This document shows, piece after piece, positions 1 to 11,430 of a stretch of 11,430 nt of DNA; position 1 is the stretch's first letter, and each line of letters begins with the position of its first letter. Made by a program: the position numbers and the translations under genes. Source of the stretch: a virus; UHGV virus genome UHGV-0107525, one strand, 5' to 3'. The notes below the pieces were generated by a model. It saw only the letters and a program-made list of their open reading frames with translations. It searched no databases and was not told where the DNA came from.

Positions 1-453
1 ATATTTGGTTGTAACACGGCGTATGGCACATGCGTCGTTAGCGGTCTGGTGTAGCTGTTAGGTACCTTTTACTAACACTGCATGGGCACATCAGGTAGCC
101 GGAATGTGCAAGCCCCGTTCATATCGTCGGACCGAGGACTCACCATCCTGGCGATTCGGTGTGACAGCCGGAAGAGCACGGCGCACAACAGGAAAAGGCG
201 TTTAATTAGCGTGAGCGCCGTTTCCGTTGTGGTAATTGCGGCTATGCGCTCGTGACGAAGCCATTTTCATTAATTGCGGTTCTGATAAGTGTCGTCGCCG
301 GGCGTGGCTGACCTGGCAGGTGGAGGCACCACCGCCACAACTCCTTTCAATTCATCATATAGCCGCTCAGGCTGTAACCCTTAATTAATACGAAGTTTCG
401 ACATATCTATCGGTTTAACCGAGAGATGGTCGCGCGTGTAAAAAGGAGACGTT

Positions 454-1029
454 ATGTTAATGGCGAACGATAACGCATATGCAGAAGAAGATCTCATTTT
501 GAGTGACTTCATCGGTCAGCGGGAACGCTGGACACAAAAGCGAGAGGAACTTTATGCCTCGTTAGTTCGCAAAGGTGTCAACATTGAAACCGCTCAAAGC
601 GGCGATATGACGGTAGTCAGTGTTGGATTACATGGTGTGAGCGTGTCCGCAGCCAATCATGAGCCATACGTAGCGTTATCCGAGTCGATGGCAAGGCTAA
701 TTAAGTTTCTGAAGCAAACAGAAGCCAATAATGTTTTCATCGCCAAAAAGAACATCAATTTTTCTGCCGCCGTGTTCTGGATGATGAAGGGGCTTGACGC
801 CCGCCGGGCATCATGGCCTAAAGGGAGCTATATGTCGATGTTCCGTGGCAGTATTGGCAGTAAAGAAAAGCTCGTCGAATTCCTGCCGGAAGAAGCATTC
901 GATATTGTGGAAGGGTGCGATGTGATGGTTATGCCTCGCCTGGTAATGATGAATGGGGATTTACAGGCGCAGACAGACTGGTTCGCAACTGGCGTGGATA
1001 TTATCGCAACTGACTGGGAGGCATTCTGA
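454..1029 (+). CDS. Hypothetical protein with C-terminal DUF2829-like domain (Tad2-like fold candidate)
   Basis: ATG at 454 with AAGGAG 5 nt upstream. C-terminal ~90 aa carries the DUF2829 signature seen more clearly in the 8666-9343 ORF: FSAAVFWMMKGLDARRASWPKG and a terminal DIIATDWEAF block (compare FSDALMWLKEGKKVARRGWNG and DLLACDWFVVE). Stop overlaps the next start (ATGA). Domain call is by-eye motif recognition, not a profile search. Confidence 0.55.
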   Translation: MLMANDNAYAEEDLILSDFIGQRERWTQKREELYASLVRKGVNIETAQSGDMTVVSVGLHGVSVSAANHEPYVALSESMARLIKFLKQTEANNVFIAKKNINFSAAVFWMMKGLDARRASWPKGSYMSMFRGSIGSKEKLVEFLPEEAFDIVEGCDVMVMPRLVMMNGDLQAQTDWFATGVDIIATDWEAF

Positions 1030-1421
1030 TGTACGAGACTACAAAATTAAGCATTCACGAAGCCTCCAATGTGGAGTGGAATATCGTTACCTGCAAGATT
1101 GTATCGTGTAATGCTGCCCGAACTGATGCAGGCTATAAGAGCACGATAACAGGCTACATGGTAATGGCTTATAGGGGATTGAGAGTTCGCTTTATCTGGA
1201 AAGCTCGGCAATTGACACCATTCAGAGAGCCGTCAATGCCATTAGAGGTAGAACAGGATTATTTAAGCCTGCCGGAAATAGACGGTGCAACGCTGGTGGA
1301 TTCTGATGGTCGTAAGGCTGATTTTGAAGTCAGCTTAAAGGTGGCGCAGGCCGTAATTAATAACTCACGTGGTAAGTGGATCGCTAAGGTAAAACACGTC
1401 GTTCGCTTATCTCGCTGGTAG
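1029..1421 (+). CDS. Hypothetical protein (130 aa)
   Basis: ORF translationally coupled to the upstream gene (ATGA overlap at 1027-1031). No recognisable motifs. Confidence 0.45.
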   Translation: MYETTKLSIHEASNVEWNIVTCKIVSCNAARTDAGYKSTITGYMVMAYRGLRVRFIWKARQLTPFREPSMPLEVEQDYLSLPEIDGATLVDSDGRKADFEVSLKVAQAVINNSRGKWIAKVKHVVRLSRW

Positions 1422-1529
1422 TGTTAGATAAATGGAATTAATTTTCTAATATAACCAACTTTTTGCCAGTCTATACAGAAATAACATTCTCATTATCATC
1501 CCCTCGGTCATTTCCTGCCCGGGGGATTA

Positions 1530-1922
1530 ATGGAACAAATCAGCAGCGCAGAAATTGCGGATATCATGATCAGGGCTGACTGCTATCTGACAGTCACTGA
1601 AATTACCACTCTAGCTAAAGAAAAATATCCTCACCTTCATGTTTCACGCGTAAGTGTAACCAACATCATTCGGCATTTTGTGCGGTCAAGCCGAGCTATT
1701 TGTGAGCTTGATGATCGTGTTTACCCACGGAAATACTGGTTGCATGGCCTGAACGGATATCAGTTCAAGGTGCGCGGGCGCACCCCTGAATACGGCAGTT
1801 TGCTGGTTAAAAACTGTAGCCGGAAGTCTGCAGAACTGGCGCGACAAGAGCAGCGCAAGCTGGTGGACATGGCTAATAAGCTGTGGAATGCCGCAGTTAA
1901 AAAGCGTGGTGTTGCTTTATGA
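1530..1922 (+). CDS. Putative small DNA-binding protein (winged-helix-like), immediately upstream of and overlapping pacA
   Basis: ATG at 1530 with GGGGGA 4 nt upstream; stop overlaps the pacA ATG (ATGA at 1919-1922). Helix-turn-helix-like segment LTVTEITTLAKEKYPHLHVSRVSVTNIIRHF followed by a wing-like YPRKYWLHGLNGY. P1 has its late-promoter activator lpa in this position, but homology could not be verified. Confidence 0.5.
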   Translation: MEQISSAEIADIMIRADCYLTVTEITTLAKEKYPHLHVSRVSVTNIIRHFVRSSRAICELDDRVYPRKYWLHGLNGYQFKVRGRTPEYGSLLVKNCSRKSAELARQEQRKLVDMANKLWNAAVKKRGVAL

Positions 1923-3283
1923 GCCTTGTTAATTGGGAAGAGCACCGCGCCAAATTTATAGCGTTGCGTGAAGAAAAAGGGATCACCGTAAAGGAATACT
2001 GCGAGCAACACGACCTTAGCTTCAATACCGCCAGAAAGCATCTCAATATGAAAAAAAATGAGGTGCGGTCGCAGGTGAAGACTACAAAAAAAAGCACCAA
2101 ATCACCTGAAAAAAAACGGGCAGGAAGAGCAAAAAAAAGGCCAGAAGAGGGTACAGAAACAACAAAATTTACAGAAACTGACAATTCACAGAGCGGAAGT
2201 TCTTTCCGGAGCATGCCGAGAAAGAAAACTTCGGATCATAAAAATAACGACAATAATAACAATGAGATAAAAGAATCTGTCAGGAGATCATTGCGCGAAA
2301 AAATGGCGAAAATGATCCCCACCGAAGATAAATGCGCCTCAAAAATCGAGGGATCTTCAGCAATGATCCCTGGCGGTGCTGTGCAGCGTGCCACGTTGCC
2401 CACTACGAGTGTGGCTCGCGACATGATGAAGAACGGCGCAGAAGAGCACCTGCGGTTAGCAATTCAAATGGCGCAAGAACGCGCACTTCAGTACCAAAGC
2501 ATTGTTGATCAGGAGGCCGAACGCCTACAGGCGGAGATAGACGCCCTGGGTGATGAACAGCCAGAAGGAATGCACCCTGGGCAGCGACTTCTCGGTCTAA
2601 TCAGTGACGCGGCCTACTACATGAACGATTTTATCAGTAGGTTGGCAGCGATATATCAGTCCGAACAAAAGCTGCGACAGGGTGATGAAAAACTTCGTCA
2701 GGGTGCTCGCCAGCAAGCATTCAGAGAGGCCGAGGCCAGAGAAAAACTCGAATTAGCACGCCTACAGGCCGAACAGCGTGGCAAAGAGATTGAATATCGC
2801 ATTGGCGCTGACGCACGCGCAGCCAGAGTTATCGCCGCCGCTATACGTATGCGTGAGCGCGAGGAGCTGGACGATATCGGTGTTGCTGAATACATCGAGC
2901 GTCAGGGTGTCAGTGTCCCGGCTATCCTCGCGGCGCGCGCGGCGAAAGCTATCACTCTTCTCGAACCTCCAGTTTCTGACATCAATGATGTTGATGATGA
3001 ACAGCTGGACAAAGAAGCGAAGGAGTTTGCATCGCTTCAGGCTAACCATCCGCAATGGCTGGCAGAGCGCCGGGCGGATGTGGCAACCATTGTTGAAGAT
3101 CTGGGGTGCGGAGATTACGACCACAATGGCGAGCGTAAGGCTGGGGAATTCGAGGCCAACGACGAAGAGTTGGATATTGACCCTTCGGCTACGGATGAAA
3201 TTTACGGTGATTATGATGCATCAGACGCAGGATATGACGCCGGAGATGATGATATCGCGATAGAACCGCCGGAGGACGACTAA
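1919..3283 (+). CDS. pacA: Terminase small / pac-recognition subunit PacA-like
   Basis: 454-aa protein with N-terminal HTH-like region, lysine-rich linker, coiled-coil-like Ala/Arg/Glu-rich middle and strongly acidic C-terminus (DDDIAIEPPEDD). Stop overlaps the start of the large terminase gene (TAATG). Contains an internal GATC cluster, as P1 pacA contains pac. Confidence 0.8.
   Translation: MSLVNWEEHRAKFIALREEKGITVKEYCEQHDLSFNTARKHLNMKKNEVRSQVKTTKKSTKSPEKKRAGRAKKRPEEGTETTKFTETDNSQSGSSFRSMPRKKTSDHKNNDNNNNEIKESVRRSLREKMAKMIPTEDKCASKIEGSSAMIPGGAVQRATLPTTSVARDMMKNGAEEHLRLAIQMAQERALQYQSIVDQEAERLQAEIDALGDEQPEGMHPGQRLLGLISDAAYYMNDFISRLAAIYQSEQKLRQGDEKLRQGARQQAFREAEAREKLELARLQAEQRGKEIEYRIGADARAARVIAAAIRMREREELDDIGVAEYIERQGVSVPAILAARAAKAITLLEPPVSDINDVDDEQLDKEAKEFASLQANHPQWLAERRADVATIVEDLGCGDYDHNGERKAGEFEANDEELDIDPSATDEIYGDYDASDAGYDAGDDDIAIEPPEDD
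2233..2369. other. Candidate pac (packaging initiation) site: cluster of five Dam GATC hexamers inside pacA
   Basis: GATC at 2234, 2286, 2314, 2352 and 2365 within about 136 bp, in hexamers GGATCA, AGATCA, TGATCC, GGATCT, TGATCC; ATGATCCC occurs twice. P1 pac is a methylation-regulated cluster of TGATCA/G hexamers within pacA. Confidence 0.4.
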
Positions 3284-4791
3284 TGGCTGGTGGGCGCAAG
3301 ATTAAATGCGTCACCAGCGATCCACGCTGGCGCGATATGGTAATCAAATACCGCTACAACTTTACCCAGGCTGTTGTTGATATTTTCGGGATGTTTCCCT
3401 CCCACCAGCAGCAGGAGATTATCCAGTCCGTACAGCAAAAAGGGAGCAGAACCACTGTTACTTCTGGTCACGGTACAGGGAAATCGTCGTTAACAGCTAT
3501 GTTGTTGCTGATTTATTTGATTCTGTTCCCCGATGCCCGTGTCATCATTGTTGCTAACAAGATAGGCCAGGTTAAAACAGGGGTATTCAAATACGTTAAA
3601 CAGTATTGGGCGAATGCAGTTAAGCGTCACGGGTGGTTACAGACCTATTTTGTCCTGTCTGACACCATGTTTTATGAACGTTCCCGCAAAGGGATCTGGG
3701 AAGTTCTCTGCAAAGGTTATCGACTCGGTAACGAAGAAGCACTGGCGGGGGAGCACGCGGCACATTTGCTTCTAATTCTGGATGAAGCATCAGGCATATC
3801 TGATAAAGCGATCGGCGTAATGACTGGCGCTCTGACTGAAGAAGATAACCGAATGTTGATGCTATCCCAGCCAACAAGGCCAAGTGGTTATTTCTACGAT
3901 TCGCACCATTCTCAAGCTAAAACCCCAGACAACCCGAAAGGGATCTGGACAGCAATTGTTCTTAACTCAGAAGAATCACCGTTCGTCACACCACAATTCA
4001 TCAGGCAGAAACTCCTGGAATATGGCGGGCGCGATTCTATTGAGTACATGGTCAAGGTTCTTGGTCAGTTTCCTCGGGAGATTAACGGCTATTTGCTTGG
4101 TCGTGATGAATGCGATCGCGCTGCGCGGCGCAAGGTGTTGTTGGAGAAAAACTGGGGATGGGTGGCTACTGCTGACGTTGGTAACGGGCGAGACAAGTCA
4201 GTTCTTAATATCTGTAAAGTGTCTGGTCACCGGGAAAAGCGGCGTGTTGTTAACTTTAAGGTAATGGAAATGCCAGGGACTATGGACCCGCTGGCTTTTG
4301 CTGACTTTATATACAACGAATGCACACCGGATAAATACCCGAATATTACAATCGCGGTTGACGCAGACGGTTTTGGTTCAGATACCTGTGCGCAGCTGGT
4401 GCGCCGTGGGGCTAATCCGGTACGGATTCGGTGGGGGAAACCCATGTTTTCGAACAAAGACAAGGAGCGTTTTGTTAACCAGCGTGCCTACGCAAATATT
4501 ATGGCTCGTGATGCCATAAAGTCAGGTCGTATGCGAATAGACAGCGACCCTAAAACGGCAGAGCAAGCGTCAAAAATCCCCTTTTTACTTAATGAAGAAG
4601 GGAAGATGGCGATGATGCGCAAGGAGCACATGCGGCAAAAGCTGAACATCAAATCACCTGACCGATGGGATACCTACTGCTTTACAATGCTGGTGGACTA
4701 TGTTCCTGCTAATGAAGATATCGGCGCTGAAATGGCTACCTTCCGCGATCAGGTTCTTGCAGATGTGGAAATGCCAGATCTGGATATATAA
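3283..4791 (+). CDS. pacB: Terminase large subunit PacB-like (ATPase plus nuclease)
   Basis: 502 aa. Walker A-like TSGHGTGKSS, Walker B-like LLLILDEASG, and C-terminal acidic clusters typical of the RNase H-like terminase nuclease domain (VATADVGNGRD, IAVDADGFGSD). Immediately follows pacA. Confidence 0.9.
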   Translation: MAGGRKIKCVTSDPRWRDMVIKYRYNFTQAVVDIFGMFPSHQQQEIIQSVQQKGSRTTVTSGHGTGKSSLTAMLLLIYLILFPDARVIIVANKIGQVKTGVFKYVKQYWANAVKRHGWLQTYFVLSDTMFYERSRKGIWEVLCKGYRLGNEEALAGEHAAHLLLILDEASGISDKAIGVMTGALTEEDNRMLMLSQPTRPSGYFYDSHHSQAKTPDNPKGIWTAIVLNSEESPFVTPQFIRQKLLEYGGRDSIEYMVKVLGQFPREINGYLLGRDECDRAARRKVLLEKNWGWVATADVGNGRDKSVLNICKVSGHREKRRVVNFKVMEMPGTMDPLAFADFIYNECTPDKYPNITIAVDADGFGSDTCAQLVRRGANPVRIRWGKPMFSNKDKERFVNQRAYANIMARDAIKSGRMRIDSDPKTAEQASKIPFLLNEEGKMAMMRKEHMRQKLNIKSPDRWDTYCFTMLVDYVPANEDIGAEMATFRDQVLADVEMPDLDI

Positions 4792-4812
4792 AGCCCCGGC
4801 AATGCGGGGCTT
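4791..4812. terminator. Hairpin between convergent pacB and the - strand 345-aa gene (likely bidirectional terminator)
   Basis: AAGCCCCG-gcaatg-CGGGGCTT: 8-bp perfect stem with 6-nt loop directly after the pacB stop and 5 nt before the stop of the convergent gene. No strong T-run on either side. Confidence 0.55.
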
Positions 4813-4816
4813 GTGA

Positions 4817-5854
4817 TTACCAGAGTTTAGCGGCGTGCTGTGTTTGGGAGAAAGTGAACCCGTAACGTTCTTCTATGGTTTTACCGTATCTTTTCCGCGC
4901 GTCTGTCAGTTTTATGCCTGTCAGGTCATCTCCGGATGTCATCATTACGTCTAACAACTCCAGATCCATTTTATTCAGTCGCGCCATCGCTTCGCGTGCT
5001 GTCTGTATTTTACGCTCAATGATATGGCGAATAGCCGGATCGGCTTCCTCAAGCATTTTGGCTGATTTGTTCTTTAAGCTCTCATTGCGGATGTCGATGT
5101 TTCGCAAGATGTATGACTTCGCAACATAGCTTGGTTGGTGTTTCTCCAGATCGCGAACGCGATAGAGACTAAAGTCACCAAGCAGGCCGCAAGGTATCGA
5201 CTCAACCCCAGAATAAATAGTAATGCTGCGACGTTCGCCGACATTATTAACAACGGGCACTGTGGTGTTCGGAAGTTTTGCGAACACTAAGGCTCCGTGT
5301 GCGCCTACCCTGAATCGTGACAGAGCATTGCTGCCTTCAATGTTTGTTGTAAGCACTACATCTGTGTATCCATCTTTGCGCGCCCGGTAAACTTCCCCTT
5401 CAGGTTCTGATGCGAAAAAACGGCGCTCTTCTTCAAGTGCACCAACAATCTGCGAAAATATCTTGTTTTTCAGGCTTTTCTTTATAATTGCATCATATTT
5501 TTTGAGCAGATTTTCGCGCGTAAATGAGCGGGTGGTGGTCGCGCTTTGCACAACAATATGCGTGCTTTGATTTGTGTCCTCGATAATGAATGGGATCGGA
5601 GAATATACAGACTCAACAATGTTAGACGCTTTGCCGTCAGCGTTACGGCACAAGTCAACAAAGGCTTTCCATTCTGTGAGGCACTTTTCAGCTTCTTCTA
5701 GCACATTCTGATCATGTGTTAGTGCAACATGGCGGAATTCCTCGCCGGAATAACTGGTATCATGGAAAACAGAGTTTGCGACCACCAGCTCTTTCCACCG
5801 TTCAGCGGTTTGCAGGAACCGTTTGTACTCTTTCTCGATCGACTTCTTACTCAT
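4817..5854 (-). CDS. Hypothetical 345-aa protein in the position of the P1 c1 immunity repressor (possible C1-type repressor)
   Basis: Long - strand ORF convergent with pacB, AGGA-type RBS 4-5 nt upstream of the ATG (RC of 5852-5854). Placement between pacB and the lox-type site/recombinase matches P1 c1. The functional call is by synteny only; no recognisable HTH. Confidence 0.4.
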   Translation of the reverse strand: MSKKSIEKEYKRFLQTAERWKELVVANSVFHDTSYSGEEFRHVALTHDQNVLEEAEKCLTEWKAFVDLCRNADGKASNIVESVYSPIPFIIEDTNQSTHIVVQSATTTRSFTRENLLKKYDAIIKKSLKNKIFSQIVGALEEERRFFASEPEGEVYRARKDGYTDVVLTTNIEGSNALSRFRVGAHGALVFAKLPNTTVPVVNNVGERRSITIYSGVESIPCGLLGDFSLYRVRDLEKHQPSYVAKSYILRNIDIRNESLKNKSAKMLEEADPAIRHIIERKIQTAREAMARLNKMDLELLDVMMTSGDDLTGIKLTDARKRYGKTIEERYGFTFSQTQHAAKLW

Positions 5855-5872
5855 TATTCCTACTCGATTTAG

Positions 5873-5881
5873 TTTTCTAAC
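5873..5881. repeat. Copy of repeated motif (A/T)TTTCTAAC, candidate repressor operator, upstream of the 345-aa gene
   Basis: TTTTCTAAC lies 19 bp upstream of the - strand start codon. Related copies at 5958-5966 (inverted), 6048-6059, 7272-7283 and 1438-1449. Confidence 0.3.
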
Positions 5882-6047
5882 ATAAAATTACTATGACAAA
5901 TCTATGCCGAATAACAGGGTGAGTAAAGGATCAAGATGTGTTTTTTTATCATCAAATTTAGAAAATTCCGCCTAAAAACTGCCTGGCATAACTTAAAGCC
6001 CACACCATCAATGCATTGCCCATCTGCGCGGAAAGGAAAAAATTTCC

Positions 6048-6059
6048 TAAATTTCTAAC
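6048..6059. repeat. Copy of 12-bp motif TAAATTTCTAAC abutting the rox-like site
   Basis: Identical 12-mer also at 7272-7283; 9-bp core shared with 5873-5881. Confidence 0.3.
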
Positions 6060-6087
6060 TTTAGATAATTGGCATTATTTAAAGTTA
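6056..6087. other. rox-type recombination site (Dre target; lox analogue)
   Basis: TAACTTTAGATAAT-TGGC-ATTATTTAAAGTTA: 14-bp inverted arms around a 4-bp spacer. The reverse complement matches the rox site as I recall it (TAACTTTAAATAATGCCAATTATTTAAAGTTA) at 31 of 32 positions, with one arm mismatch. Lies 152 bp upstream of the Cre-family recombinase gene. Confidence 0.85.
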
Positions 6088-6096
6088 GTATATAAT
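6069..6096 (+). promoter_or_regulatory. Sigma70-like promoter overlapping the rox spacer and right arm, directed toward the recombinase gene
   Basis: -35 TTGGCA (6069-6074), 16-bp spacer, -10 TATAAT (6091-6096). Two GATC sites follow at 6100-6103 and 6109-6112. A second -35-like TTGACA at 6116-6121 has only a weak -10. Confidence 0.45.
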
Positions 6097-6239
6097 AATG
6101 ATCAAACGATCAGTATTGACAGACTCAAAAAGTCATGGTTCGAATCAAGGGCTTAAATTTTAAATTCTCACGGATAACTAGCCTGTCATTTTTTGTTTTT
6201 TCGCGTAGCGACACCAATTTATAGAGGTGAAATGATTAC

Positions 6240-7268
6240 ATGAGTAAACTTATTATCTCCGGTAATCCTGGCATGTTTCTTCGTGATATTGGTGCTGAGT
6301 ACCAGGAAGCCGCCAAAAATTTCATGCAGTTCCTTAATGACCAGGGCGCTTACTCACCTAATACACTGCGCGATCTGCGCTTGGTCTTTCACTCCTGGGC
6401 GCGTTGGTGCCACGCTCGTGGTATTGCGTGGTTTCCGATCTCCCCGGAAGCTGCCCGCGAATACCTGCTTCAACTGCATGATGCGGATCTGGCTTCAACC
6501 ACCATTGAAAAGCATTACGCCATGCTCAATATGCTGTTGTCACAATGCGGACTGCCGCAACTCTCTGATGACAAAAGCGTATCCCTGGCGATGCGGCGCA
6601 TCCGGCGCGAAGCTGCAACCGAAAAAGGCGAACGCACAGGCCAGGCTATACCGTTGCGGTGGGATGATCTGAAATGGCTCGACGTGTTGCTGTCCCGTTC
6701 CGAGCGGCTGGTGGACCTGCGCAACCGGGCGTTTCTCTTCGTGGCATACAATACCCTGTTGCGTATGGCTGAAATGTCCCGCGTGCGTGTTCGCGATCTG
6801 GAACAGACTGGTGACACTGTAACGCTTCACGTATCCCACACCAAAACCATCACGACCGCCGCCGGACTTGATAAGGTGCTCTCCCTCCGGACAACTGCGG
6901 TTCTCAATGACTGGCTGGACGAGTCCGGACTACGTGATCACCCGGATGCGATACTTTTCCCGCCAGTACACCGGAGCAACAAAGCGCGGATCACCACCAC
7001 GCCACTAACCGCGCCCGCGATGGAGAAGATTTTCAGTGACGCCTGGGCGCTGCTTGGTAAGAGTGATGCCACCCCAAATAAAGGCCGTTACCGGACGTGG
7101 ACAGGCCACAGTGCGCGTGTTGGTGCCGCCATAGATATGGCTGAAAAACAGGTGTCTTTGGTTGAAATTATGCAGGAAGGTACATGGAAGAAGCCCGAAA
7201 CACTGATGCGTTATCTTCGTCGTGGCGGTGTGACAGCAGGTGCCAATAGCCGCCTCATGGATTCATGA
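6240..7268 (+). CDS. dre: Cre-family tyrosine recombinase, Dre-like
   Basis: 342 aa. Aligns along its length to P1 Cre as recalled, with conserved blocks (FPISPE, AFLFVAYNTLLRMAE vs Cre AFLGIAYNTLLRIAE, WTGHSARVGAA vs WSGHSARVGAA) and catalytic Arg, His-x-x-Arg, Trp and Tyr (LMRYLRR) in place. GAGGTG RBS 10 nt upstream. Adjacent rox-type site supports Dre. Confidence 0.92.
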   Translation: MSKLIISGNPGMFLRDIGAEYQEAAKNFMQFLNDQGAYSPNTLRDLRLVFHSWARWCHARGIAWFPISPEAAREYLLQLHDADLASTTIEKHYAMLNMLLSQCGLPQLSDDKSVSLAMRRIRREAATEKGERTGQAIPLRWDDLKWLDVLLSRSERLVDLRNRAFLFVAYNTLLRMAEMSRVRVRDLEQTGDTVTLHVSHTKTITTAAGLDKVLSLRTTAVLNDWLDESGLRDHPDAILFPPVHRSNKARITTTPLTAPAMEKIFSDAWALLGKSDATPNKGRYRTWTGHSARVGAAIDMAEKQVSLVEIMQEGTWKKPETLMRYLRRGGVTAGANSRLMDS

Positions 7269-7271
7269 GAT

Positions 7272-7283
7272 TAAATTTCTAAC
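7272..7283. repeat. Second copy of 12-bp motif TAAATTTCTAAC, between dre and the downstream operon
   Basis: Exact 12-bp match to 6048-6059, located 4 bp after the dre stop. Confidence 0.3.
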
Positions 7284-7342
7284 ACACCTTTTTAGATTGT
7301 TATCTTTGCTGTAAAGTACCCTCTCCTATTTCGGAGGGTGCT

Positions 7343-7687
7343 TTGCAGAGTCAAATCACGGAATCAAGACGCTTTAAGGTTGATGGTTACACCGTAACCT
7401 TCGCCGCTGGTGTTAAGAACAGTCATGCTGTCGTTGTATTTGGCATCATGACCGGACTTGAGGCCGTCCCTGTGTTTACCCTCGAAAAAAACTGGCGAAA
7501 TCTGGAGGAAGCGGAAAGCTACGTCCGGAGAGTAACCATCGCTGCCGCCGAAAAACTCCTGTCCCACTATCAGGAAAATTATCGCACTATGGTCGAGAAG
7601 ATTAATCTCGCTTTCACTCGCCCCACTACAGGCTTTATCGCCCCGGAGACTAATGCAGGTCGCTATCCTGCAAGGGGGCGTCGGTGA
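7343..7687 (+). CDS. Hypothetical protein (114 aa), first gene of the accessory operon
   Basis: ORF from a TTG start with GGAGGG 4 nt upstream; stop overlaps the next gene's GTG start. The start codon is uncertain. The antisense ORF 7364-7702 is less likely given operon polarity. Confidence 0.4.
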   Translation: MQSQITESRRFKVDGYTVTFAAGVKNSHAVVVFGIMTGLEAVPVFTLEKNWRNLEEAESYVRRVTIAAAEKLLSHYQENYRTMVEKINLAFTRPTTGFIAPETNAGRYPARGRR

Positions 7688-8160
7688 AAAATTATTACCC
7701 ATCTCTGAATTGTTACCCGTCTTCGTATCCGGAATTGTCCGGGAAGCTGTTAGCTCTATTGGCTAAATCACCAACTGAATGGTTTAAGCCTGTCGTTATC
7801 AATCCGCACTTCCTGGATTACGGATCTGTTCGCACTCGTAACGAACTCAAAAACCTGCTGGCGCATGGATTCATTCGACACCGTGCCGGGAAAGGCTATC
7901 AGTTAGCGATTTCGCCAGAAGAGGCCGTGCAGCTATTCGCATATCGTGACAGCCAGACAAAAGCACGGGTAATAGCTCAAATACTTCATAACGGCAGCAC
8001 CTATGCCCGCCAGTTTGGCGGCGACACGTCGCAGTTCTTGCGGGCTGTGCGATCGCTGGAAGAACAAGGAGTTATTGAAAGTTCCTGTCTTCCTGTTCCT
8101 ACCGTTCCACATATCAAACGTCGGGTTTACACCTTCACGCAGAGAGCTAAAAAACAATGA
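7684..8160 (+). CDS. Hypothetical protein, possible winged-helix DNA-binding protein (158 aa)
   Basis: No internal Met, so the GTG at 7684 (AAGGGGG RBS about 7 nt upstream) is the likely start. Wing-like IRHRAGKGYQLAI and helix TSQFLRAVRSLEEQGVIE. Stop overlaps the dUTPase ATG (ATGA). Confidence 0.5.
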   Translation: MKNYYPSLNCYPSSYPELSGKLLALLAKSPTEWFKPVVINPHFLDYGSVRTRNELKNLLAHGFIRHRAGKGYQLAISPEEAVQLFAYRDSQTKARVIAQILHNGSTYARQFGGDTSQFLRAVRSLEEQGVIESSCLPVPTVPHIKRRVYTFTQRAKKQ

Positions 8161-8651
8161 TTTACGTAAAAGTGAAACGCCTACATCCGGCAGCAAAACT
8201 TCCAGCTTATGCCACTGCCGGATCGGCGGCGATGGATTTTGAGGCTATTGAAATAACACCGTGCGTCGATAGCAATGGTGCAATTTCCTCAAGCTGGTGG
8301 GTGCATACCGGGCTGGCTATGGAGATCCCGCCCGGCTGGTGTCTGAAACTCTATCCGCGTTCCGGATTGGGCTGCAAAAAACATACTCGCCTGGCTAACT
8401 GCGTAGGAATTATCGACTCCGATTATCGCGGTGAAATCATGGCAAAACTGATTACTGATCCCGGCGGTGAAGGCGTTTGCCTCAAGCCAGGAATGGCGGT
8501 CATGCAAGGCATTTTTGAGCGTGTTGAACAAGTCTCTCTGGTCGAAGTTGAGGAACTCAACGAAACGGAACGTGGTGCTGGTGGCTTTGGTAGCACATCA
8601 GAAGGCCGCTTTGAAATTAAGCGTTCACCGCTTCAGTACGAAAAGTTATAA
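8157..8651 (+). CDS. dut: dUTP diphosphatase (trimeric dUTPase)
   Basis: Five dUTPase motifs recognisable in order: ATAGSAAMDF (motif 1 variant), YPRSGLG, GIIDSDYRGE, MAVMQ, RGAGGFGSTS. Confidence 0.85.
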   Translation: MIYVKVKRLHPAAKLPAYATAGSAAMDFEAIEITPCVDSNGAISSSWWVHTGLAMEIPPGWCLKLYPRSGLGCKKHTRLANCVGIIDSDYRGEIMAKLITDPGGEGVCLKPGMAVMQGIFERVEQVSLVEVEELNETERGAGGFGSTSEGRFEIKRSPLQYEKL

Positions 8652-8665
8652 GCAGAGGAAAGACT

Positions 8666-9343
8666 ATGGCTAGCATAGCAACGAAAGAGCTTTTTAGGTT
8701 CATTCCCAAATACAAAGCTCACAAAATCGTTAGTGCATCGAAAATCAAAAATGTTGTTATTTTCGGAGTAACTGATACCCCACTTTGGGGCAGCATCGAA
8801 CTCGTTGAGCCAAAAGGGGCAACAGTTTGTGTTGACGCAATGTTTTTACAAAAACACCGACCAAAAACTGGCGGGTATCTGATCGTTTATGAAAACGGTT
8901 ATCTGTTCTATGCCCAGGAGAAACCATTTGAGGAATGCTATGCCCTGGTTAACGACGCCTCCGAAAATGGAACCACGGTCATCATTACGGATGACAACGG
9001 CGTGATGACTAATCTTACCGGGAGCGTAACTATTTCTGCTGGTGGCATCACTACTCAGCAAGAAGAAATCGACCTTGAAGCAGCCGACTTTTCTGACGCG
9101 CTGATGTGGCTGAAGGAAGGAAAGAAAGTTGCTCGACGCGGGTGGAACGGCGAAAACCAATTCTGCTGGCTGGTTCCTGAAGGACAGTACCCAGCACGAA
9201 TGGAAGCCATTAAGGGATATTTCCCCGGCGACCTCGTTCCGTATGGTGCTTATTTCGCCTTAAAAAATGCACAAGGTGTAGTTGTTCCGTGGGTGCCTTC
9301 GGTAGGCGACTTACTGGCGTGTGACTGGTTTGTAGTGGAGTGA
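8666..9343 (+). CDS. DUF2829-domain fusion protein (Tad2-like C-terminal domain, unknown N-terminal domain)
   Basis: C-terminal about 85 aa FSDALMWLKEGKKVARRGWNGENQFCWLVPEG...VVVPWVPSVGDLLACDWFVVE matches the DUF2829 signature (F-x-x-A-L-x-x-L-K-x-G-K-K-V-x-R-x-G-W-N-G ... D-L-L-A-x-D-W). GAGGAAAG RBS before the ATG at 8666. Confidence 0.75.
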   Translation: MASIATKELFRFIPKYKAHKIVSASKIKNVVIFGVTDTPLWGSIELVEPKGATVCVDAMFLQKHRPKTGGYLIVYENGYLFYAQEKPFEECYALVNDASENGTTVIITDDNGVMTNLTGSVTISAGGITTQQEEIDLEAADFSDALMWLKEGKKVARRGWNGENQFCWLVPEGQYPARMEAIKGYFPGDLVPYGAYFALKNAQGVVVPWVPSVGDLLACDWFVVE

Positions 9344-9349
9344 TTTGAC

Positions 9350-10117
9350 ATGGAAAGCACCAAAACAATTCAATACCGCTTGCGTAATGGCCTGCTGGTG
9401 GCTGTTAACGCTGATATGTCACTGCCGTTTGACACGATAGAACGCACTATCATGACGTATCTCGGCTTTAATGAAGAGCTGAATGAAGAGCATGGCGTAG
9501 CTATATGGAGTGATGCAGACAGCGGCGTTCGTCGTTACATCACTGCCAGAGGCAAAGACTACTCTCTGGAAGAACTGTTTACCCTTGCGCAGTCTTTCGA
9601 ATGTGTAGCATTGGACCTGTTTAATGATCCTGCTATAGCGCAACGACTTATCCGCGATCTTGGACTGTCGGTTACCCCAATTATCTTTAAAAATGGCAGC
9701 CTGACTGGCACATGGCGCGTAGAACGCATCTCAAACTACCTTCCATATAACCGACAGTTAAATGGAGTAATCTCCGGCGTTAATCAGCCCGTAGCGTGTG
9801 AAAATGTAAACCTGGTTGTCGCTGTTTTGGCAACCGCATGTCGTGTTATCGGTTTGGCTAAACAGGCATTTATTCATTTCCCAAATGGTGCAGAAGGTAG
9901 CGCAGAGATTATCGCGTGTGATTTCGAATTTACCTGGATGCTACGCGAATATCTGGACCAAACAGTATTCCGTGCCGAAGAACTGGATATGTATATCACG
10001 TCAACGATTCCAGACGATGTGCGAGCTGAAGCAATCGCTACAGCCAGGGCGAAATGCCGTGCGGCGATTGCAGAACAGGCCAAAGAAGAAGTTAAGGAAG
10101 TGGCAGATGGCGACTAA
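9350..10117 (+). CDS. Hypothetical protein (255 aa) with acidic C-terminus, translationally coupled to the terminase-like pseudo-ATPase
   Basis: ATG at 9350; acidic tail AEQAKEEVKEVADGD; stop at 10115-10117 overlaps the downstream start at 10107 by 11 nt. No recognisable catalytic motifs. Confidence 0.6.
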   Translation: MESTKTIQYRLRNGLLVAVNADMSLPFDTIERTIMTYLGFNEELNEEHGVAIWSDADSGVRRYITARGKDYSLEELFTLAQSFECVALDLFNDPAIAQRLIRDLGLSVTPIIFKNGSLTGTWRVERISNYLPYNRQLNGVISGVNQPVACENVNLVVAVLATACRVIGLAKQAFIHFPNGAEGSAEIIACDFEFTWMLREYLDQTVFRAEELDMYITSTIPDDVRAEAIATARAKCRAAIAEQAKEEVKEVADGD

Positions 10118-11201
10118 GAGCAATATTTATAAAGATCCGCGCTGGCTGTCGCTGGTGGAGAAATATAAAGACAATTGGGTACTGGCAGCAAAAGAATTGT
10201 TTGATATTGATTTAAGCCACCAGCAACAACAAATTGTTGAAGCTATACAGCCCAACAATGCAAAAGCTACTGTCACCACTCCGTATGGGATCGGACGACC
10301 GCAAGTGCTTGCTGTTATTAGTACCCTTTATACGATTATGTATCCTGATTCCCGGACAGTAATTGTTTATCCAAAATCAAATGTTTGCAAAAGAGGAATT
10401 GTTGCATATGTGTGGCAATGTTGGGAGGCATTGCTGAAAAAACAACCTTTTATCATTGAGTATTTTAAGGTCGGTGATAGCGGTCTGATGTTCAATGAAT
10501 TTTGGGGAATGTGCTTTTGTAACTACCGCCTTAACTATGAAGATAGCATTGCAGGTCACTACGCCGACCATCTTTTATTCATTATTGTGGATTCCGTACA
10601 TATCAGCGATCGGGCATACAGCATTGTGTGGGCAAGCATGACTAGTGGTGATTCACGCATATTGCTCACTTCAATTCCGTCACCAGAGGAAATAGGCTTT
10701 TTTTATGATTCACATCATGGACGTGCTTTAGCTGAAGATAATCCGAGTGGTGTATATAAAGCCATTAAGCTGAGTGCGGAGGATTCACCATTTATTACCC
10801 AAGAATATCTTGATCATTTTGCCGAAAGGTATGGCGGGCGAAATAGTGATGACTATCGTCGTATGATTCTTGGTGAGTTCCCTGGTATTAGGGAGGCTGT
10901 TCTTGAATCAGATATGCCGAAGACAATGCGCTTTTCGATGCCTGATGGTAGTGAATGGACAATGCCATTACGAGTGATAGCCCGGCATCATGCGCAGCAC
11001 CACGCCAAAAAACATGGCGTCACGACATTAGAATGGTTGAAATCGCACACTATTCCACTCTTCACTGCAGATCACAATGCTATCGTTGAGTGGGCAAAAA
11101 CAATTCCGTGGGAGCATGTCGCTGAATATGCTCACATGCTGAAGCCTCCGAAAGACAGACACGAAATTAGCTGGCTGACAGCAGAAAAAATCATTGAGTG
11201 A
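10107..11201 (+). CDS. PacB (terminase large subunit) ATPase-domain paralogue with degenerate Walker motifs and no nuclease domain (predicted pseudo-ATPase)
   Basis: Start at ATG 10107 (AAGGAAG RBS 6 nt upstream) rather than the track's upstream 9816. The first ~250 aa align without gaps to PacB 3283-4791 (blocks DPRW, SHQQQ, TVT, PD-R-IV, HLL-I, G[YF]FYDSHH, DNPxG, ESPFxT, YGGR, LG[QE]FP). Walker A GHGTGKSS is replaced by PYGIGRPQ and Walker B ILDE by IIVD. The C-terminal ~110 aa are unrelated to the PacB nuclease domain and His-rich (RHHAQHHAKKHG). Confidence 0.8.
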   Translation: MATKSNIYKDPRWLSLVEKYKDNWVLAAKELFDIDLSHQQQQIVEAIQPNNAKATVTTPYGIGRPQVLAVISTLYTIMYPDSRTVIVYPKSNVCKRGIVAYVWQCWEALLKKQPFIIEYFKVGDSGLMFNEFWGMCFCNYRLNYEDSIAGHYADHLLFIIVDSVHISDRAYSIVWASMTSGDSRILLTSIPSPEEIGFFYDSHHGRALAEDNPSGVYKAIKLSAEDSPFITQEYLDHFAERYGGRNSDDYRRMILGEFPGIREAVLESDMPKTMRFSMPDGSEWTMPLRVIARHHAQHHAKKHGVTTLEWLKSHTIPLFTADHNAIVEWAKTIPWEHVAEYAHMLKPPKDRHEISWLTAEKIIE

Positions 11202-11207
11202 TAGTAG

Positions 11208-11238
11208 GAAGCCCGCCTGGTTGAGCGGGCTTCTTTTC
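11208..11238. terminator. Intrinsic terminator hairpin between convergent genes
   Basis: GAAGCCCGC-ctggttga-GCGGGCTTC: 9-bp perfect stem followed by TTTTC on the + strand; sits between the pseudo-terminase stop (11201) and the doc stop (11237-11239). Confidence 0.65.
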
Positions 11239-11430
11239 AAATATTGGAACCATATAGTTCACGTAGTTTTTCCGCTACTGAAGATACGGGGATTTCACCA
11301 GTTGCAGCCCCCACCGCAAGTTCCACCAGCACGGGAGAATCATATACCTGTATACCGTTACGGCGTAGAAATAGCAGCGCACTGTTTAGCGCGGTACGCT
11401 TATTGGCATCATTGAATATATGCCCTCTCG
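11237..11430 (-). CDS. doc: Doc toxin (Fic-family kinase of the phd-doc addiction module), 3' portion; N-terminus lies beyond the window edge
   Basis: Reverse-strand translation from the window edge gives RGHIFNDANKRTALNSALLFLRRNGIQVYDSPVLVELAVGAATGEIPVSSVAEKLRELYGSNI, containing the Fic/Doc motif HxFxDANKR and closely matching the C-terminus of P1 Doc as recalled. Not in the ORF track because the start is off-window. Confidence 0.9.
   Translation of the reverse strand, partial: RGHIFNDANKRTALNSALLFLRRNGIQVYDSPVLVELAVGAATGEIPVSSVAEKLRELYGSNI

What the first reader, a model, noticed from the sequence alone, without database searches (positions are those of the whole stretch)
7343..11201. Six-gene overlapping operon between dre and doc looks like an accessory (possibly anti-defence) island and does not follow the P1 gene order
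All six genes are on the + strand, joined by overlapping start/stop codons or short gaps: hypothetical, winged-helix-like, dUTPase, DUF2829 fusion, 255-aa hypothetical, pseudo-terminase. In P1 as I recall it, cre is followed by cra/ref/mat and the res-mod restriction system, and phd-doc sits upstream of pacA; here doc is convergent with the end of this operon. Phage dUTPases can moonlight as regulators (for example derepression of staphylococcal pathogenicity islands).
Basis: partly seen in the sequence, partly recalled or inferred. Interest (0 to 1): 0.55.

Follow-up and report, generated by a model that had tools for sequence, protein, structure and literature searches.

The report
D6-type accessory operon with Tad2 sponge
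This is the normal gene block that D6-like phage-plasmids carry after their Dre recombinase; one of its six genes encodes a known kind of anti-immunity "sponge", another encodes a previously undescribed dead copy of the DNA-packaging motor, and the rest have no known function.

Summary
Six co-oriented, tightly packed genes (7343-11201) lie between dre and a convergent doc, and they do not follow P1 order. They do follow the published order of phage D6. The block dre-g1-g2-dut-g4-isaA is present in every D6-like element I examined, so this is not a free cargo slot.

The anti-defence idea is right for one gene. The C-terminal 90 residues of g4 are a Tad2-family signal sponge, closest to the His-ADPR-binding ModTad2. 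A 2025 preprint already reports Tad2 in 93% of D6-like elements. The dUTPase looks like an ordinary enzyme.

The new material:
- The sixth gene is intact. It encodes a PacB ATPase-domain paralogue that has lost Walker A and Walker B. It is fused to a ~100-aa domain from a family of more than 1,200 uncharacterised phage proteins. Similar dead paralogues occur in other elements.
- g4, isaA and g6 also fill the P1 "RD-2" hot-spot in P1-like plasmids.
- The locus is a domain-level mosaic, and the Tad2 segment spread recently.
- A conserved C1-operator-like motif precedes g1.

The functions of g1, g2, IsaA and the dead terminase remain unknown.

The parts
7271..7283 (+). C1-operator-like motif TTAAATTTCTAAC, 60 nt upstream of g1, just after the dre stop codon
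   Evidence: The pattern TTARWTTTCTAAY occurs 3 times in the window against 0 in 200 shuffles. The pattern was derived from these same sites, so this test is partly circular. The other two sites are upstream of lpa (1438) and upstream of the c1-like gene (5869), where P1 has Olpa and Oc1. The motif is found at the equivalent three positions in the D6-like loci L001, L002, L009, L010 and L011. Function is inferred, not shown.
7343..7687 (+). g1, 114 aa, unknown function (D6 orf117)
   Evidence: phrog_1968, E 1e-46, unknown function. No Pfam, NCBIfam, PADLOC or PDB match. Among deposited phages it is found only in D6. A 45%-identical homologue lies after a Cre-like gene in L017. dN/dS 0.16-0.25.
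7684..8160 (+). g2, 158 aa, unknown function; possibly two tandem winged-helix-like units (D6 orf116)
   Evidence: phrog_6669, E 3e-96. Only 9 protein clusters in 5.8 billion proteins, all Enterobacteriaceae, none with a Pfam domain. The alignment shows two copies of an L..L...G.I(x)nR/K.Y.L/F.T/A pattern (my reading). There is one PadR hit at E 0.13 in 1 of 7 homologues. dN/dS 0.06-0.14.
8157..8651 (+). g3, trimeric dUTPase, 164 aa (D6 orf115)
   Evidence: Pfam PF00692 at 52.8 bits (cut-off 22). NCBIfam equivalog NF001862 at 121.8 bits (cut-off 103), aligned over residues 4-148 against profile positions 8-148 of 150. Sequences I read as the five dUTPase motifs (GSAAMDF, PRSGL, GIIDSDYRGE, AVMQ, RGAGGFGST) are present in the translation. 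dN/dS about 0.1.
8666..9067 (+). g4 N-terminal domain (residues 1-134), unknown function, fast-evolving
   Evidence: No Pfam match. PHROG families 872, 11049 and 9467 are all of unknown function. It is 53-58% identical in the L009, L010 and SJ46 alleles, while the C-domain of the same protein is 98-99% identical. dN/dS is 0.45-1.55, against 0.05-0.2 for neighbouring genes. It is largely deleted in D6 itself, whose g4 is 146 aa.
9068..9343 (+). g4 C-terminal Tad2 (DUF2829) domain, residues 135-225: predicted immune-signal sponge
   Evidence: Pfam PF11195 Tad2-like, E 1.3e-22, 80.5 bits. PDB hits: 9eib/8v3e ModTad2 at E 2.5e-21, HgmTad2/AcrIIA7 at 5e-12, SPO1 Tad2 8sme at 5e-10. The SPO1 Tad2 contact residues W25, N26, W73, S76 and D79 are conserved; T65, D67, H71 and T78 are not. 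The segment is 96-98% nt identical (dS 0.05-0.16) in all D6-like loci and in P1-like SJ46.
9350..10117 (+). g5, IsaA homologue, 255 aa, unknown function (D6 orf113)
   Evidence: 48% identical to P1 IsaA over 258 aa, E 1e-88. phrog_2326, unknown function. No PDB or Pfam match. P1 isaA scored non-essential in a CRISPRi screen (PMC10695390).
10107..10886 (+). g6 N-terminal part (residues 1-260): catalytically dead paralogue of the PacB (large terminase) ATPase domain
   Evidence: 37% identity to the window's own PacB over 258 aa, E 2e-61. PacB GHGTGKS aligns with PYGIGRP (Walker A). PacB ILDEAS aligns with IVDSVH (Walker B). All ~500-aa PacB relatives keep both motifs, and the short paralogues (P0004-7, P0009, P0012-15) have lost both. 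The ORF is intact at 49-62% aa identity in L009 and L005, with dN/dS 0.18-0.31.
10887..11201 (+). g6 C-terminal ~100-aa domain of an uncharacterised phage protein family, in the position of the terminase nuclease domain
11207..11245 (+). Intrinsic terminator closing the operon (stem 11207-11234, then TTTTCAAATATT); it fills the gap to the doc stop codon
   Evidence: RNA fold -20.4 kcal/mol, z -2.9 against shuffles. Also picked up by the terminator scan at 11215-11230. Sequence.
11237..11430 (-). 3' end of doc (convergent neighbour, not part of the operon)
   Evidence: The minus-strand reading ends ...AEKLRELYGSNI*. The homologous stretch is annotated as death-on-curing toxin in matching plasmids.
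6240..7268 (+). dre (Cre-like tyrosine recombinase), upstream neighbour; possible co-transcription cannot be excluded
   Evidence: Pfam Phage_integrase plus SAM-like N-domain. D6 annotation reads 'similar to P1 gene cre'. The only strong sigma-70-like promoter in 5800-11430 is at 6069-6096, upstream of dre.

Best explanation
The region is the early accessory operon that D6-lineage phage-plasmids carry downstream of their Dre recombinase. It holds six translationally packed genes. They are bounded by a site that looks like an operator for the C1-type repressor and by an intrinsic terminator.

It has two layers. The old layer is g1, g2, dut and isaA, which are syntenic even in distant relatives. 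Of these, only the dUTPase has a clear biochemistry: it removes dUTP. The exchangeable layer has been added to this block and is swapped by recombination with P1-like plasmids.

The exchangeable layer has two parts:
- A Tad2-family sponge domain fused to a fast-evolving N-domain (g4). By homology it should form an oligomer that sequesters a TIR/Thoeris-type nucleotide signal. His-ADPR is the most likely ligand, with gcADPR or cyclic mononucleotides possible. That would block abortive-infection immunity when the element infects a cell or is induced.
- A PacB ATPase-domain paralogue that cannot hydrolyse ATP and has no nuclease domain (g6). It must act by binding something rather than by packaging DNA.

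Shown: gene structure, family memberships, loss of the catalytic motifs, synteny, mosaicism and selection. Inferred: operator control, early expression, the ligand of g4, and any role for g1, g2, IsaA and g6.
For: - Gene structure and boundaries.
- D6 has the same order. So do four other D6-like plasmids spanning 66-99% aa identity.
- The distant lineage L017 has Cre-like, g1 (45%), g2 (24%), dut (25%) and isaA (26%) in the same order.
- Tad2 membership. Core contact residues are conserved.
- The Tad2 family sequesters Thoeris, Pycsar and CBASS signals, and ModTad2 binds His-ADPR and cUMP.
- In one survey the type II Thoeris TIR protein was numbered cluster 1 of the E. coli TIR-protein clusters.
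- Tad2 is reported in 93% of D6-like and 56% of P1-like elements.
- dUTPase passes the equivalog cut-off.
- g6 has lost both Walker motifs but is kept as an intact ORF under purifying selection in three lineages.
- The exchangeable layer: g4/isaA/g6 combinations lie after ssb in P1-like genomes. The Tad2 segment has dS about 0.1 while the flanks have dS 0.5 to above 2. A g6-less plasmid keeps the last 66 nt of g6.
- The operator-like motif sits at three regulatory positions and is conserved across loci. The repressor is a distant C1 homologue.
Against: - No expression data, and no convincing sigma-70 promoter between dre and g1. The genes may simply be read through from the dre promoter and be expressed in lysogens.
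- The operator pattern was derived from the sites it was then tested on.
- The adenine-side pocket residues of g4 match neither SPO1 Tad2 nor ModTad2, so the ligand is open. A 134-aa N-terminal fusion could interfere with the tetramer that forms the binding pockets.
- Four of the six proteins have no functional evidence at all.
- P1 isaA is dispensable for lytic growth in the laboratory, which fits either layer.
Confidence: 0.6

Rival explanations
1. The whole six-gene block is a dedicated anti-defence island. g1, g2, dUTPase, IsaA and the dead terminase each neutralise a different host defence. For example, the dead terminase would occupy terminase-sensing receptors such as Avs1-3 or Upx without activating them.
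For: - Anti-defence genes tend to cluster, and one member (Tad2) is established.
- A second Tad2-like protein lies 7 kb upstream.
- The variable parts (g4 N-domain, isaA, g6 N-domain) evolve fast and mosaically, as arms-race proteins do.
- Relatives of the g6 C-domain sit in the accessory nin region of prophages beside Lar and Ea22-type genes.
- Avs2 and Upx recognise the terminase ATPase domain alone (PMC13601566).
Against: - No family evidence for any gene except g4, and no PADLOC hits.
- g1-g2-dut-isaA are conserved in order over deep divergence with low dN/dS. That is more typical of lineage functions than of arms-race cargo.
- EcAvs2 recognition uses ATP bound at the terminase Walker site, which g6 lacks, so strong binding to that sensor is doubtful.
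- g6 is frequently lost.
Confidence: 0.15
2. Apart from the inserted Tad2 domain, the operon serves the element's own DNA metabolism and development. The functions would be a regulator (g2), nucleotide sanitation (dut), and IsaA plus the dead terminase as modulators of recombination, replication or the timing of pac cleavage through binding to PacA, PacB or DNA.
For: - Deep synteny of g1-g2-dut-isaA after the recombinase.
- In other lineages the dead-terminase gene lies directly after ssb (L016, and P1-like pCREC-629_2) or overlaps a Ref-type RecA-dependent nuclease gene, with a Mat homologue a few hundred bases downstream.
- g6 keeps the PacB N-terminal region and the FYDSHH and YGGR..Y...LGEFP blocks.
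- The dUTPase is an ordinary enzyme.
Against: - isaA is non-essential in P1.
- g6 is absent from D6 itself, which is a viable phage, and from other lineages.
- There is no detectable similarity of g1, g2, g5 or g6 to P1 C8, Ref, Mat or IsaB.
Confidence: 0.2
3. The dead terminase, alone or with IsaA, is a weapon against competing P1/D6-like phages. It would be a dominant-negative subunit that poisons the packaging motor or titrates the PacA of a superinfecting relative.
For: - It is a non-catalytic copy of an oligomeric motor subunit.
- Its ATPase-like domain is highly divergent between lineages (49% aa) while the C-domain stays 95% identical, as expected for a specificity-determining surface.
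- It occurs only in related, co-circulating phage-plasmids.
Against: - It would also threaten the carrier's own PacB, to which it is 37% identical.
- There is no experimental precedent that I could find.
- It sits in what looks like an early lytic operon rather than with prophage-expressed exclusion genes.
Confidence: 0.05

Closest known systems
Phage D6 orf117-orf113 region (MF356679 / NC_050154)
   Same: The gene order after dre is the same: g1, g2, dUTPase, DUF2829 protein, IsaA-like, then convergent pdcA/doc/phd. Identity is 95-99% aa for g1, g2, dut, the Tad2 domain and IsaA.
   Different: D6 lacks g6 altogether. Its DUF2829 protein is 146 aa, with most of the N-domain deleted. D6 also has pdcA between isaA and doc. 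The window's dre allele is much more diverged (dS about 1.3) than the adjoining g1-dut (dS about 0.13).
Tad2 sponges (SPO1 Tad2; ModTad2/MoTad2, PDB 8V3E and 9EIB; HgmTad2/AcrIIA7)
   Same: DUF2829 fold family by sequence. The core pocket residues W, N, W, S and D are conserved. The closest solved relative is the His-ADPR/cUMP binder ModTad2.
   Different: Characterised Tad2 proteins are stand-alone at about 90-105 aa, whereas this one carries a 134-aa N-terminal domain of unknown function. Residues at SPO1 positions 65, 67, 71 and 78 differ from both SPO1 Tad2 and ModTad2. Neither binding nor oligomeric state has been tested.
P1 PacB / large terminase subunit
   Same: The first 260 residues of g6 are homologous to the PacB ATPase domain: 37% to the window's PacB and 33% to P1 PacB.
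   Different: The Walker A Lys-Ser and Walker B Asp-Glu are lost. The nuclease domain is replaced by an unrelated ~100-aa domain. By definition it is not a terminase.
T4 vs.8 (stand-alone terminase-ATPase-like protein noted in PMC13601566)
   Same: It is a phage-encoded separate paralogue of the terminase ATPase domain with unknown function.
   Different: vs.8 keeps Walker A and B and activates EcAvs2, whereas g6 has lost both motifs. Their relatedness to each other was not tested here.
P1 RD-2 hot-spot (ssb - isaA - IS1 - isaB - hxr)
   Same: It holds the same isaA family. In P1-like plasmids it also holds the g4 and/or g6 homologues. It is described as one of five variable regions of P1-like plasmids (PMC6906374).
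   Different: It is located after ssb rather than after the recombinase. In P1 itself, IS1 and the unrelated isaB occupy the place of g6.

Membership tests
Tad2 / DUF2829 (g4 C-domain) | Pfam PF11195 match above the gathering score | tested here: met
   80.5 bits against a cut-off of 25, residues 141-224.
Tad2 / DUF2829 (g4 C-domain) | Sequence similarity to experimentally characterised, solved Tad2 proteins | tested here: met
   9eib/8v3e ModTad2 at E 2.5e-21 over the full chain; 8kbi at 5e-12; 8sme at 5e-10.
Tad2 / DUF2829 (g4 C-domain) | Conservation of ligand-contacting residues defined in SPO1 Tad2 (W25, N26, W73, D79; also I63, T65, D67, H71, S76, T78) | tested here: inconclusive
   W25, N26, W73, S76 and D79 are conserved. 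I63 is L, T65 is N, D67 is Q, H71 is V and T78 is G (alignment, residues). The core is kept, but the positions likely to set specificity differ.
Tad2 / DUF2829 (g4 C-domain) | Homotetramer forming inter-subunit pockets; binding of gcADPR, His-ADPR or other signals; inhibition of Thoeris | not testable with these tools
   This needs multimer modelling or biochemistry and phage assays.
Tad2 / DUF2829 (g4 C-domain) | Small stand-alone protein (~90-105 aa) | tested here: not met
   g4 is 225 aa with a 134-aa N-terminal extension. The D6 allele is 146 aa.
Trimeric dUTPase (g3) | Match to the curated dut equivalog and Pfam dUTPase above cut-off, with catalytic motifs present | tested here: met
   NF001862 at 121.8 bits (cut-off 103); PF00692 at 52.8 (cut-off 22). 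Sequences I read as motifs I-V are visible in the translation.
Moonlighting staphylococcal-type phage dUTPase | Extra divergent insertion (motif VI) that mediates Stl binding (from general knowledge) | tested here: not met
   Residues 4-148 align with profile positions 8-148 of 150, with no sizeable insertion. There is only a 16-aa C-terminal tail.
Large terminase subunit (g6) | Homologous ASCE ATPase domain | tested here: met
   37% identity to PacB over 258 aa, E 2e-61.
Large terminase subunit (g6) | Walker A GxxxxGK[ST] and Walker B hhhhDE | tested here: not met
   g6 has PYGIGRP and IIVDSVH where PacB relatives have GHGTGKS and I(V/L)DEAS.
Large terminase subunit (g6) | C-terminal RNase H-like nuclease domain | tested here: not met
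P1 IsaA family (g5) | Full-length sequence similarity to P1 IsaA | tested here: met
   48% identity over 258 aa, E 1e-88; phrog_2326 at E 2e-133. The family has no known function.
Anti-defence gene island | Two or more recognised anti-defence genes adjacent to one another | tested here: not met
   Only g4 is recognisable. The second Tad2-like gene is 7 kb away at 454-1029.
Variable cargo locus of the D6 lineage | Different gene content at the same position in related elements | tested here: not met
   g1-g2-dut-g4-isaA are present in the same order in L001, L002, L009, L010 and L011. Only g6, the N-domain of g4 and the downstream TA genes vary.
C1-repressor-controlled operon (P1 type) | Operator for the immunity repressor overlapping the operon promoter | tested here: inconclusive
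   A conserved motif lies at 7271-7283 and at lpa- and c1-proximal positions. No promoter was identified, and binding was not tested.
Winged-helix DNA-binding protein (g2) | Match to a wHTH family profile or fold | tested here: inconclusive
   No Pfam hit for g2. There is one PadR hit at E 0.13 among 7 homologues. The repeated wHTH-like sequence pattern was seen by eye.

The most novel reading that the evidence does not exclude
g6 represents an undescribed, widespread class of phage proteins that I call 'psi-TerL'. These are terminase ATPase domains that have lost Walker A, Walker B and the nuclease domain, yet are kept under purifying selection. They occur in P1/D6-like phage-plasmids and in other elements. 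More than a dozen 50%-identity clusters were seen among the best 150 hits. In two lineages they are fused, in either order, to a ~100-aa domain that is otherwise a stand-alone accessory protein of lambdoid prophages. The most interesting reading is that they mimic the packaging motor. They would either blind terminase-sensing immune receptors (Avs1-3, Upx) or sabotage the packaging of rival phages.
Probability: 0.15. Interest if true: 0.8.

Novelty: new member of a known kind. Interest (0 to 1): 0.4.

Why it matters
The finding as stated is mostly ordinary. The gene order is that of the published phage D6, and the presence of Tad2 in D6- and P1-like phage-plasmids has been reported. P1/D6-like phage-plasmids are common in pathogenic E. 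coli, Shigella and Salmonella, so knowing which immune pathways they disarm helps explain how they spread.

Three results go beyond the annotation and can be tested:
- The Tad2 domain is a nearly identical cassette shared by otherwise deeply diverged P1-like and D6-like elements. It is fused to a fast-evolving partner domain. That points to recent selection for this sponge and to an unknown second activity.
- A conserved, non-catalytic copy of the terminase ATPase domain exists as a protein family of its own. Terminase is a principal target of bacterial immune sensors, so such mimics are candidates for a new counter-defence or inter-phage competition mechanism.
- A candidate operator motif gives a handle on the D6 immunity regulon.

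Tried and rejected
- Single-sequence AlphaFold model of full-length g6: unusable (pLDDT 39.5). I therefore modelled only the C-domain, with 56 homologues.
- Idea that IS1 split a g6 homologue in P1 into isaA and isaB: rejected. IsaB and the IsaA tail show no similarity to g6.
- Idea that P1 Mat is a dead-terminase relative, because the gene sits between ref and mat in L017: rejected.
- g1 and g2 against P1 c8, ref and mat: no tblastn hits in the P1 segments fetched.
- PADLOC defence models for all six proteins and two upstream ones: none.
- PDB sequence searches for g1, g2 and g5: nothing.
- P1 late-promoter '-22 box' (AGTGAYTT): two matches in the window, one at 9339 at the g4/g5 junction. 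This is no more than chance (27 of 200 shuffles reach two matches). I did not pursue it.
- Literature searches for inactive terminase paralogues or decoys: no relevant paper.
- The D6 genome paper (PMC5800970) is not held, so what its authors said about this region could not be checked.
- The pseudogene reading of g6: rejected. The ORF is intact at 49-62% identity in three lineages with dN/dS 0.18-0.31.

Full report
**What the window is**

The window is a piece of a D6-like, P1-family phage-plasmid from Escherichia.

- The six-gene stretch matches 243 plasmid records. Forty-four of them cover at least 80% of it, at 93-97% nucleotide identity.
- Phage D6 matches the first 65% at 95.8%.
- Upstream of the finding lie a Tad2-like gene (454-1029), a 130-aa ORF, lpa, pacA, pacB, a 345-aa C1-like repressor on the minus strand, an inverted repeat at 6055-6088 and dre.
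- The inverted repeat corresponds to the rox site annotated at the ends of the D6 record.

**Checking the observation**

All six ORFs exist as described, and they are annotated at the same coordinates in the closest RefSeq plasmid.

- The junctions, in order, are a 4-nt overlap, a 4-nt overlap, a 14-nt gap, a 6-nt gap and an 11-nt overlap. Ribosome-binding sites are plausible.
- The sixth gene starts at 10107 and encodes 364 aa. The mechanical ORF start at 9816 is not the gene start.
- The operon ends in a strong hairpin at 11207-11234 followed by a T-run (-20.4 kcal/mol, z -2.9).
- That hairpin fills the 35 nt up to the stop codon of the convergent doc.

**What each gene is**

- **g1 (114 aa)** belongs to PHROG families with no function assigned and has no Pfam, NCBIfam, PADLOC or PDB match.
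- **g2 (158 aa)** is likewise unassigned. It is confined to nine protein clusters in Enterobacteriaceae. Its alignment shows two winged-helix-like sequence patterns, and there is one marginal PadR hit.
- **g3** is a bona fide trimeric dUTPase. It scores 121.8 bits against the dut equivalog (cut-off 103) and has no inserted motif.
- **g4 (225 aa)** has a C-terminal Tad2 domain (Pfam 80.5 bits). Its closest solved relatives are ModTad2 (E 2.5e-21), HgmTad2/AcrIIA7 and SPO1 Tad2.
- **g5** is an IsaA homologue, 48% identical to P1 IsaA. P1 isaA scored non-essential (PMC10695390).
- **g6** is described in its own section below.

**The Tad2 domain of g4**

- SPO1 Tad2 binds 1''-3' gcADPR through W25, N26, W73 and D79, among other residues (10.1101/2023.05.01.538930).
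- Those residues and S76 are conserved in g4. Positions 65, 67, 71 and 78 differ from both SPO1 Tad2 and ModTad2.
- ModTad2 sequesters His-ADPR, the type II Thoeris signal, and also cUMP (10.1101/2024.01.03.573942 and PMC12393519).
- The family as a whole covers CBASS, Pycsar and three Thoeris types.
- I therefore assign the family with confidence and the ligand only tentatively.

**The sixth gene (g6)**

- Residues 1-260 are 37% identical to the window's own PacB ATPase domain (E 2e-61).
- The Walker A Lys-Ser has been replaced: GHGTGKS in PacB aligns with PYGIGRP in g6. The Walker B Asp-Glu has also been replaced: ILDEAS aligns with IVDSVH.
- Similarity to PacB stops exactly where the nuclease domain would begin.
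- In an alignment with relatives from an exhaustive profile-free search (728 hits), every ~500-aa PacB-type protein keeps both motifs. All the short paralogues have lost both.
- Further dead paralogues of 230-270 aa turned up among the best 150 hits.
- The gene is not decaying. It is an intact ORF at 62% aa identity in an E. marmotae D6-like plasmid and at 52% in a P1-like IncY plasmid, with dN/dS 0.18-0.31.
- The C-terminal 105 residues belong to a family of at least 1,211 mostly stand-alone ~100-aa proteins without any Pfam domain.
- Examples of that family sit in the nin accessory region of lambdoid prophages.
- A confident model (pLDDT 84.7) has no significant neighbour in the PDB.
- One metagenomic protein, P0025, carries the same two domains in the opposite order. 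This argues that the two domains work together.
- The neighbours of the dead paralogues vary. They include isaA here and in P1-like plasmids, ssb, a Ref-type nuclease and a radical-SAM gene.
- g6 shows no similarity to P1 IsaB or Mat.

**Is this a variable cargo position?**

Within the D6 lineage it is not.

- dre-g1-g2-dut-g4-isaA is present in the same order in D6, in three E. coli plasmids (counting the window), in one E. marmotae plasmid and in one E. fergusonii plasmid.
- An 84-kb metagenomic contig of a much more distant relative has a Cre-like gene, g1 (45%), an extra ORF, g2 (24%), dut (25%) and isaA (26%). Further on it has ref, a dead terminase and a Mat homologue.
- What varies is g6, the N-domain of g4 and the genes downstream.
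- g6 is absent from D6, L010 and L011. L010 still carries the last 66 nt of its reading frame, so g6 was lost there by a ~1-kb deletion.
- The N-domain of g4 is largely deleted in D6.
- The downstream genes are pdcA/doc/phd, doc/phd, or humD directly.
- dre also occurs alone on unrelated resistance plasmids.

In P1-like genomes the picture differs. Members of the g4-isaA-g6 set sit after ssb.

- SJ46 and Ro157c2YLVW have g4 plus isaA.
- pCREC-629_2 has isaA plus g6.
- P1 has isaA, IS1 and isaB.
- This is 'RD-2', one of five published hot-spots of variation in P1-like plasmids (PMC6906374).

**Mosaic evolution**

Identity to the window changes abruptly along the operon.

- The Tad2 domain is 98-99% identical at the protein level and 96-98% at the nucleotide level (dS 0.05-0.16). 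This holds in every locus, including P1-like SJ46.
- The N-domain of the same protein is only 53-58% identical in several of those loci, with dN/dS 0.45-1.55.
- isaA has dS above 2 against SJ46.
- The C-domain of g6 is 95% identical to the E. marmotae allele, while its ATPase-like domain is only 49% identical.
- The window's dre allele is far more diverged from D6 (dS about 1.3) than the adjoining g1-dut (dS about 0.13).
- The locus is therefore a patchwork assembled by recombination. The Tad2 segment spread recently across lineages.

**Regulation**

- The consensus scan finds no promoter between dre and g1. The only strong one lies upstream of dre and overlaps the rox repeat.
- An exact 11-mer, AAATTTCTAAC, occurs both next to rox and 60 nt upstream of g1.
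- The broader motif TTARWTTTCTAAY occurs three times in the window: upstream of lpa, upstream of the repressor gene and upstream of g1. None of 200 shuffles contains it.
- The motif is found at the equivalent positions in all D6-like loci.
- P1 has C1 operators at the lpa and c1 positions. The operator core TCTAAT is shared, and the 345-aa repressor is a distant C1 homologue.
- I infer that the operon is repressor-controlled and early. The motif was derived from the sites it was tested on, and nothing has been measured.

**Comparison with what is known, and verdict**

- The gene order is that of the published D6 genome.
- A 2025 preprint reports 'Tad2 AcrIIA7 (anti-Thoeris)' in 93% of D6-like and 56% of P1-like elements (10.1101/2025.09.12.675607).
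- In one survey, type II Thoeris corresponds to TIR-protein cluster 1 in E. coli (PMC11350192).
- The anti-defence reading is therefore correct for one gene and already in the literature at the annotation level.
- I found no description of the dead-terminase family.
- The nearest published analogue is T4 vs.8, a stand-alone terminase-ATPase-like protein that keeps its Walker motifs and activates EcAvs2 (PMC13601566).
- That paper also shows that Avs2 and Upx sense the terminase ATPase domain. This makes a mimicry role conceivable, though it is unsupported here.
- Overall, this is an ordinary, lineage-typical operon with one known-type counter-defence gene and one interesting uncharacterised component.

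Noticed in passing
window 454-1029 (+): A second, divergent Tad2-like protein of 191 aa (Pfam PF11195 at 37.8 bits against a cut-off of 25, domain at residues 102-190). It lies three genes upstream of pacA, where P1 has pdcB. The first Trp, the second Trp and the Asp of the Tad2 pocket are kept, but the Asn next to the first Trp is Pro.
   Followed up: partly
window 1438-1450, 5869-5881, 7271-7283 (+); weaker copies at 5957 (-) and 6049 (+): The motif TTARWTTTCTAAY recurs at regulatory positions upstream of lpa, of the C1-like repressor gene and of g1. It is conserved at the same places in all D6-like loci and is a candidate operator of the D6-type repressor.
   Followed up: partly
window 6055-6088: A 15-nt inverted repeat with a 4-nt spacer (CTAACTTTAGATAAT / ATTATTTAAAGTTAG). 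It is the rox-type recombination site and is overlapped by the only strong sigma-70-like promoter of the region, at 6069-6096. The D6 record annotates a rox half-site at its ends.
   Followed up: partly
window 7268/7343 boundary: There is a recombination breakpoint between dre and g1. The window's dre differs from D6 and most D6-like plasmids at dS 1.2-1.4, whereas g1, g2 and dut differ at dS 0.12-0.17. A 99.5%-identical dre is found in an E. fergusonii plasmid.
   Followed up: partly
L012 (NZ_CP060135, Salmonella IncFIB conjugative plasmid) 5001-6133: A dre gene, about 100 nt of downstream sequence and the operator-like motif sit alone between an IS5-family element and IS26 in a macrolide/mercury resistance region. 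The recombinase has escaped from phage-plasmids into resistance plasmids. Of 96 dre-positive plasmids, 30 are typed conjugative and 35 mobilizable.
   Followed up: no
L010 (CP125036) 5279-5390 against window 10091-11201: This g6-less D6-like plasmid retains the last 66 nt of the g6 reading frame at 94% identity. The same 66-nt remnant matches many other plasmids of D6-like size, which indicates repeated or inherited deletion of g6.
   Followed up: yes
P0025 (metagenomic protein, 246 aa): The ~100-aa 'MPDGS..W.VP...NNMNW' domain is at the N-terminus, followed by a dead terminase ATPase domain (ATGSGTGTTT). These are the same two domains as in g6, in the opposite order.
   Followed up: partly
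L013-L015 (Enterobacter prophages) 6001-6315: Stand-alone relatives of the g6 C-domain lie between the replication genes (DnaB-type helicase) and NinB. Their neighbours are Ead/Ea22, DUF551, dATP/dGTP pyrophosphohydrolase and Lar-type genes, which is a classic accessory region.
   Followed up: no
L017 (84-kb metagenomic contig) 1-7885: A third lineage combines both gene orders: Cre-like, g1, an extra ORF, g2, dut, isaA, further genes, a Ref-type RecA-dependent nuclease overlapping a dead terminase, then a Mat homologue. It has no Tad2, and a HigBA pair lies nearby.
   Followed up: partly
L016 (1.2-kb metagenomic contig) 1-1197: A dead terminase paralogue (P0009) lies directly downstream of a gene whose product ends in the SSB tail motif DDDIPF. 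This echoes the position after ssb in P1-like plasmids.
   Followed up: no
window 1750-2500 (+): A strongly A-rich coding strand (AT skew up to 0.43) covers the 5' third of pacA, which encodes a Lys/Glu/Asn-rich low-complexity segment. In P1 the pac site lies inside the 5' part of pacA.
   Followed up: no
window 9339-9346 (+): A match to the P1 late-promoter '-22 box' (AGTGATTT) sits at the g4/g5 junction. It is not above chance expectation: two matches in the window, reached by 27 of 200 shuffles.
   Followed up: no
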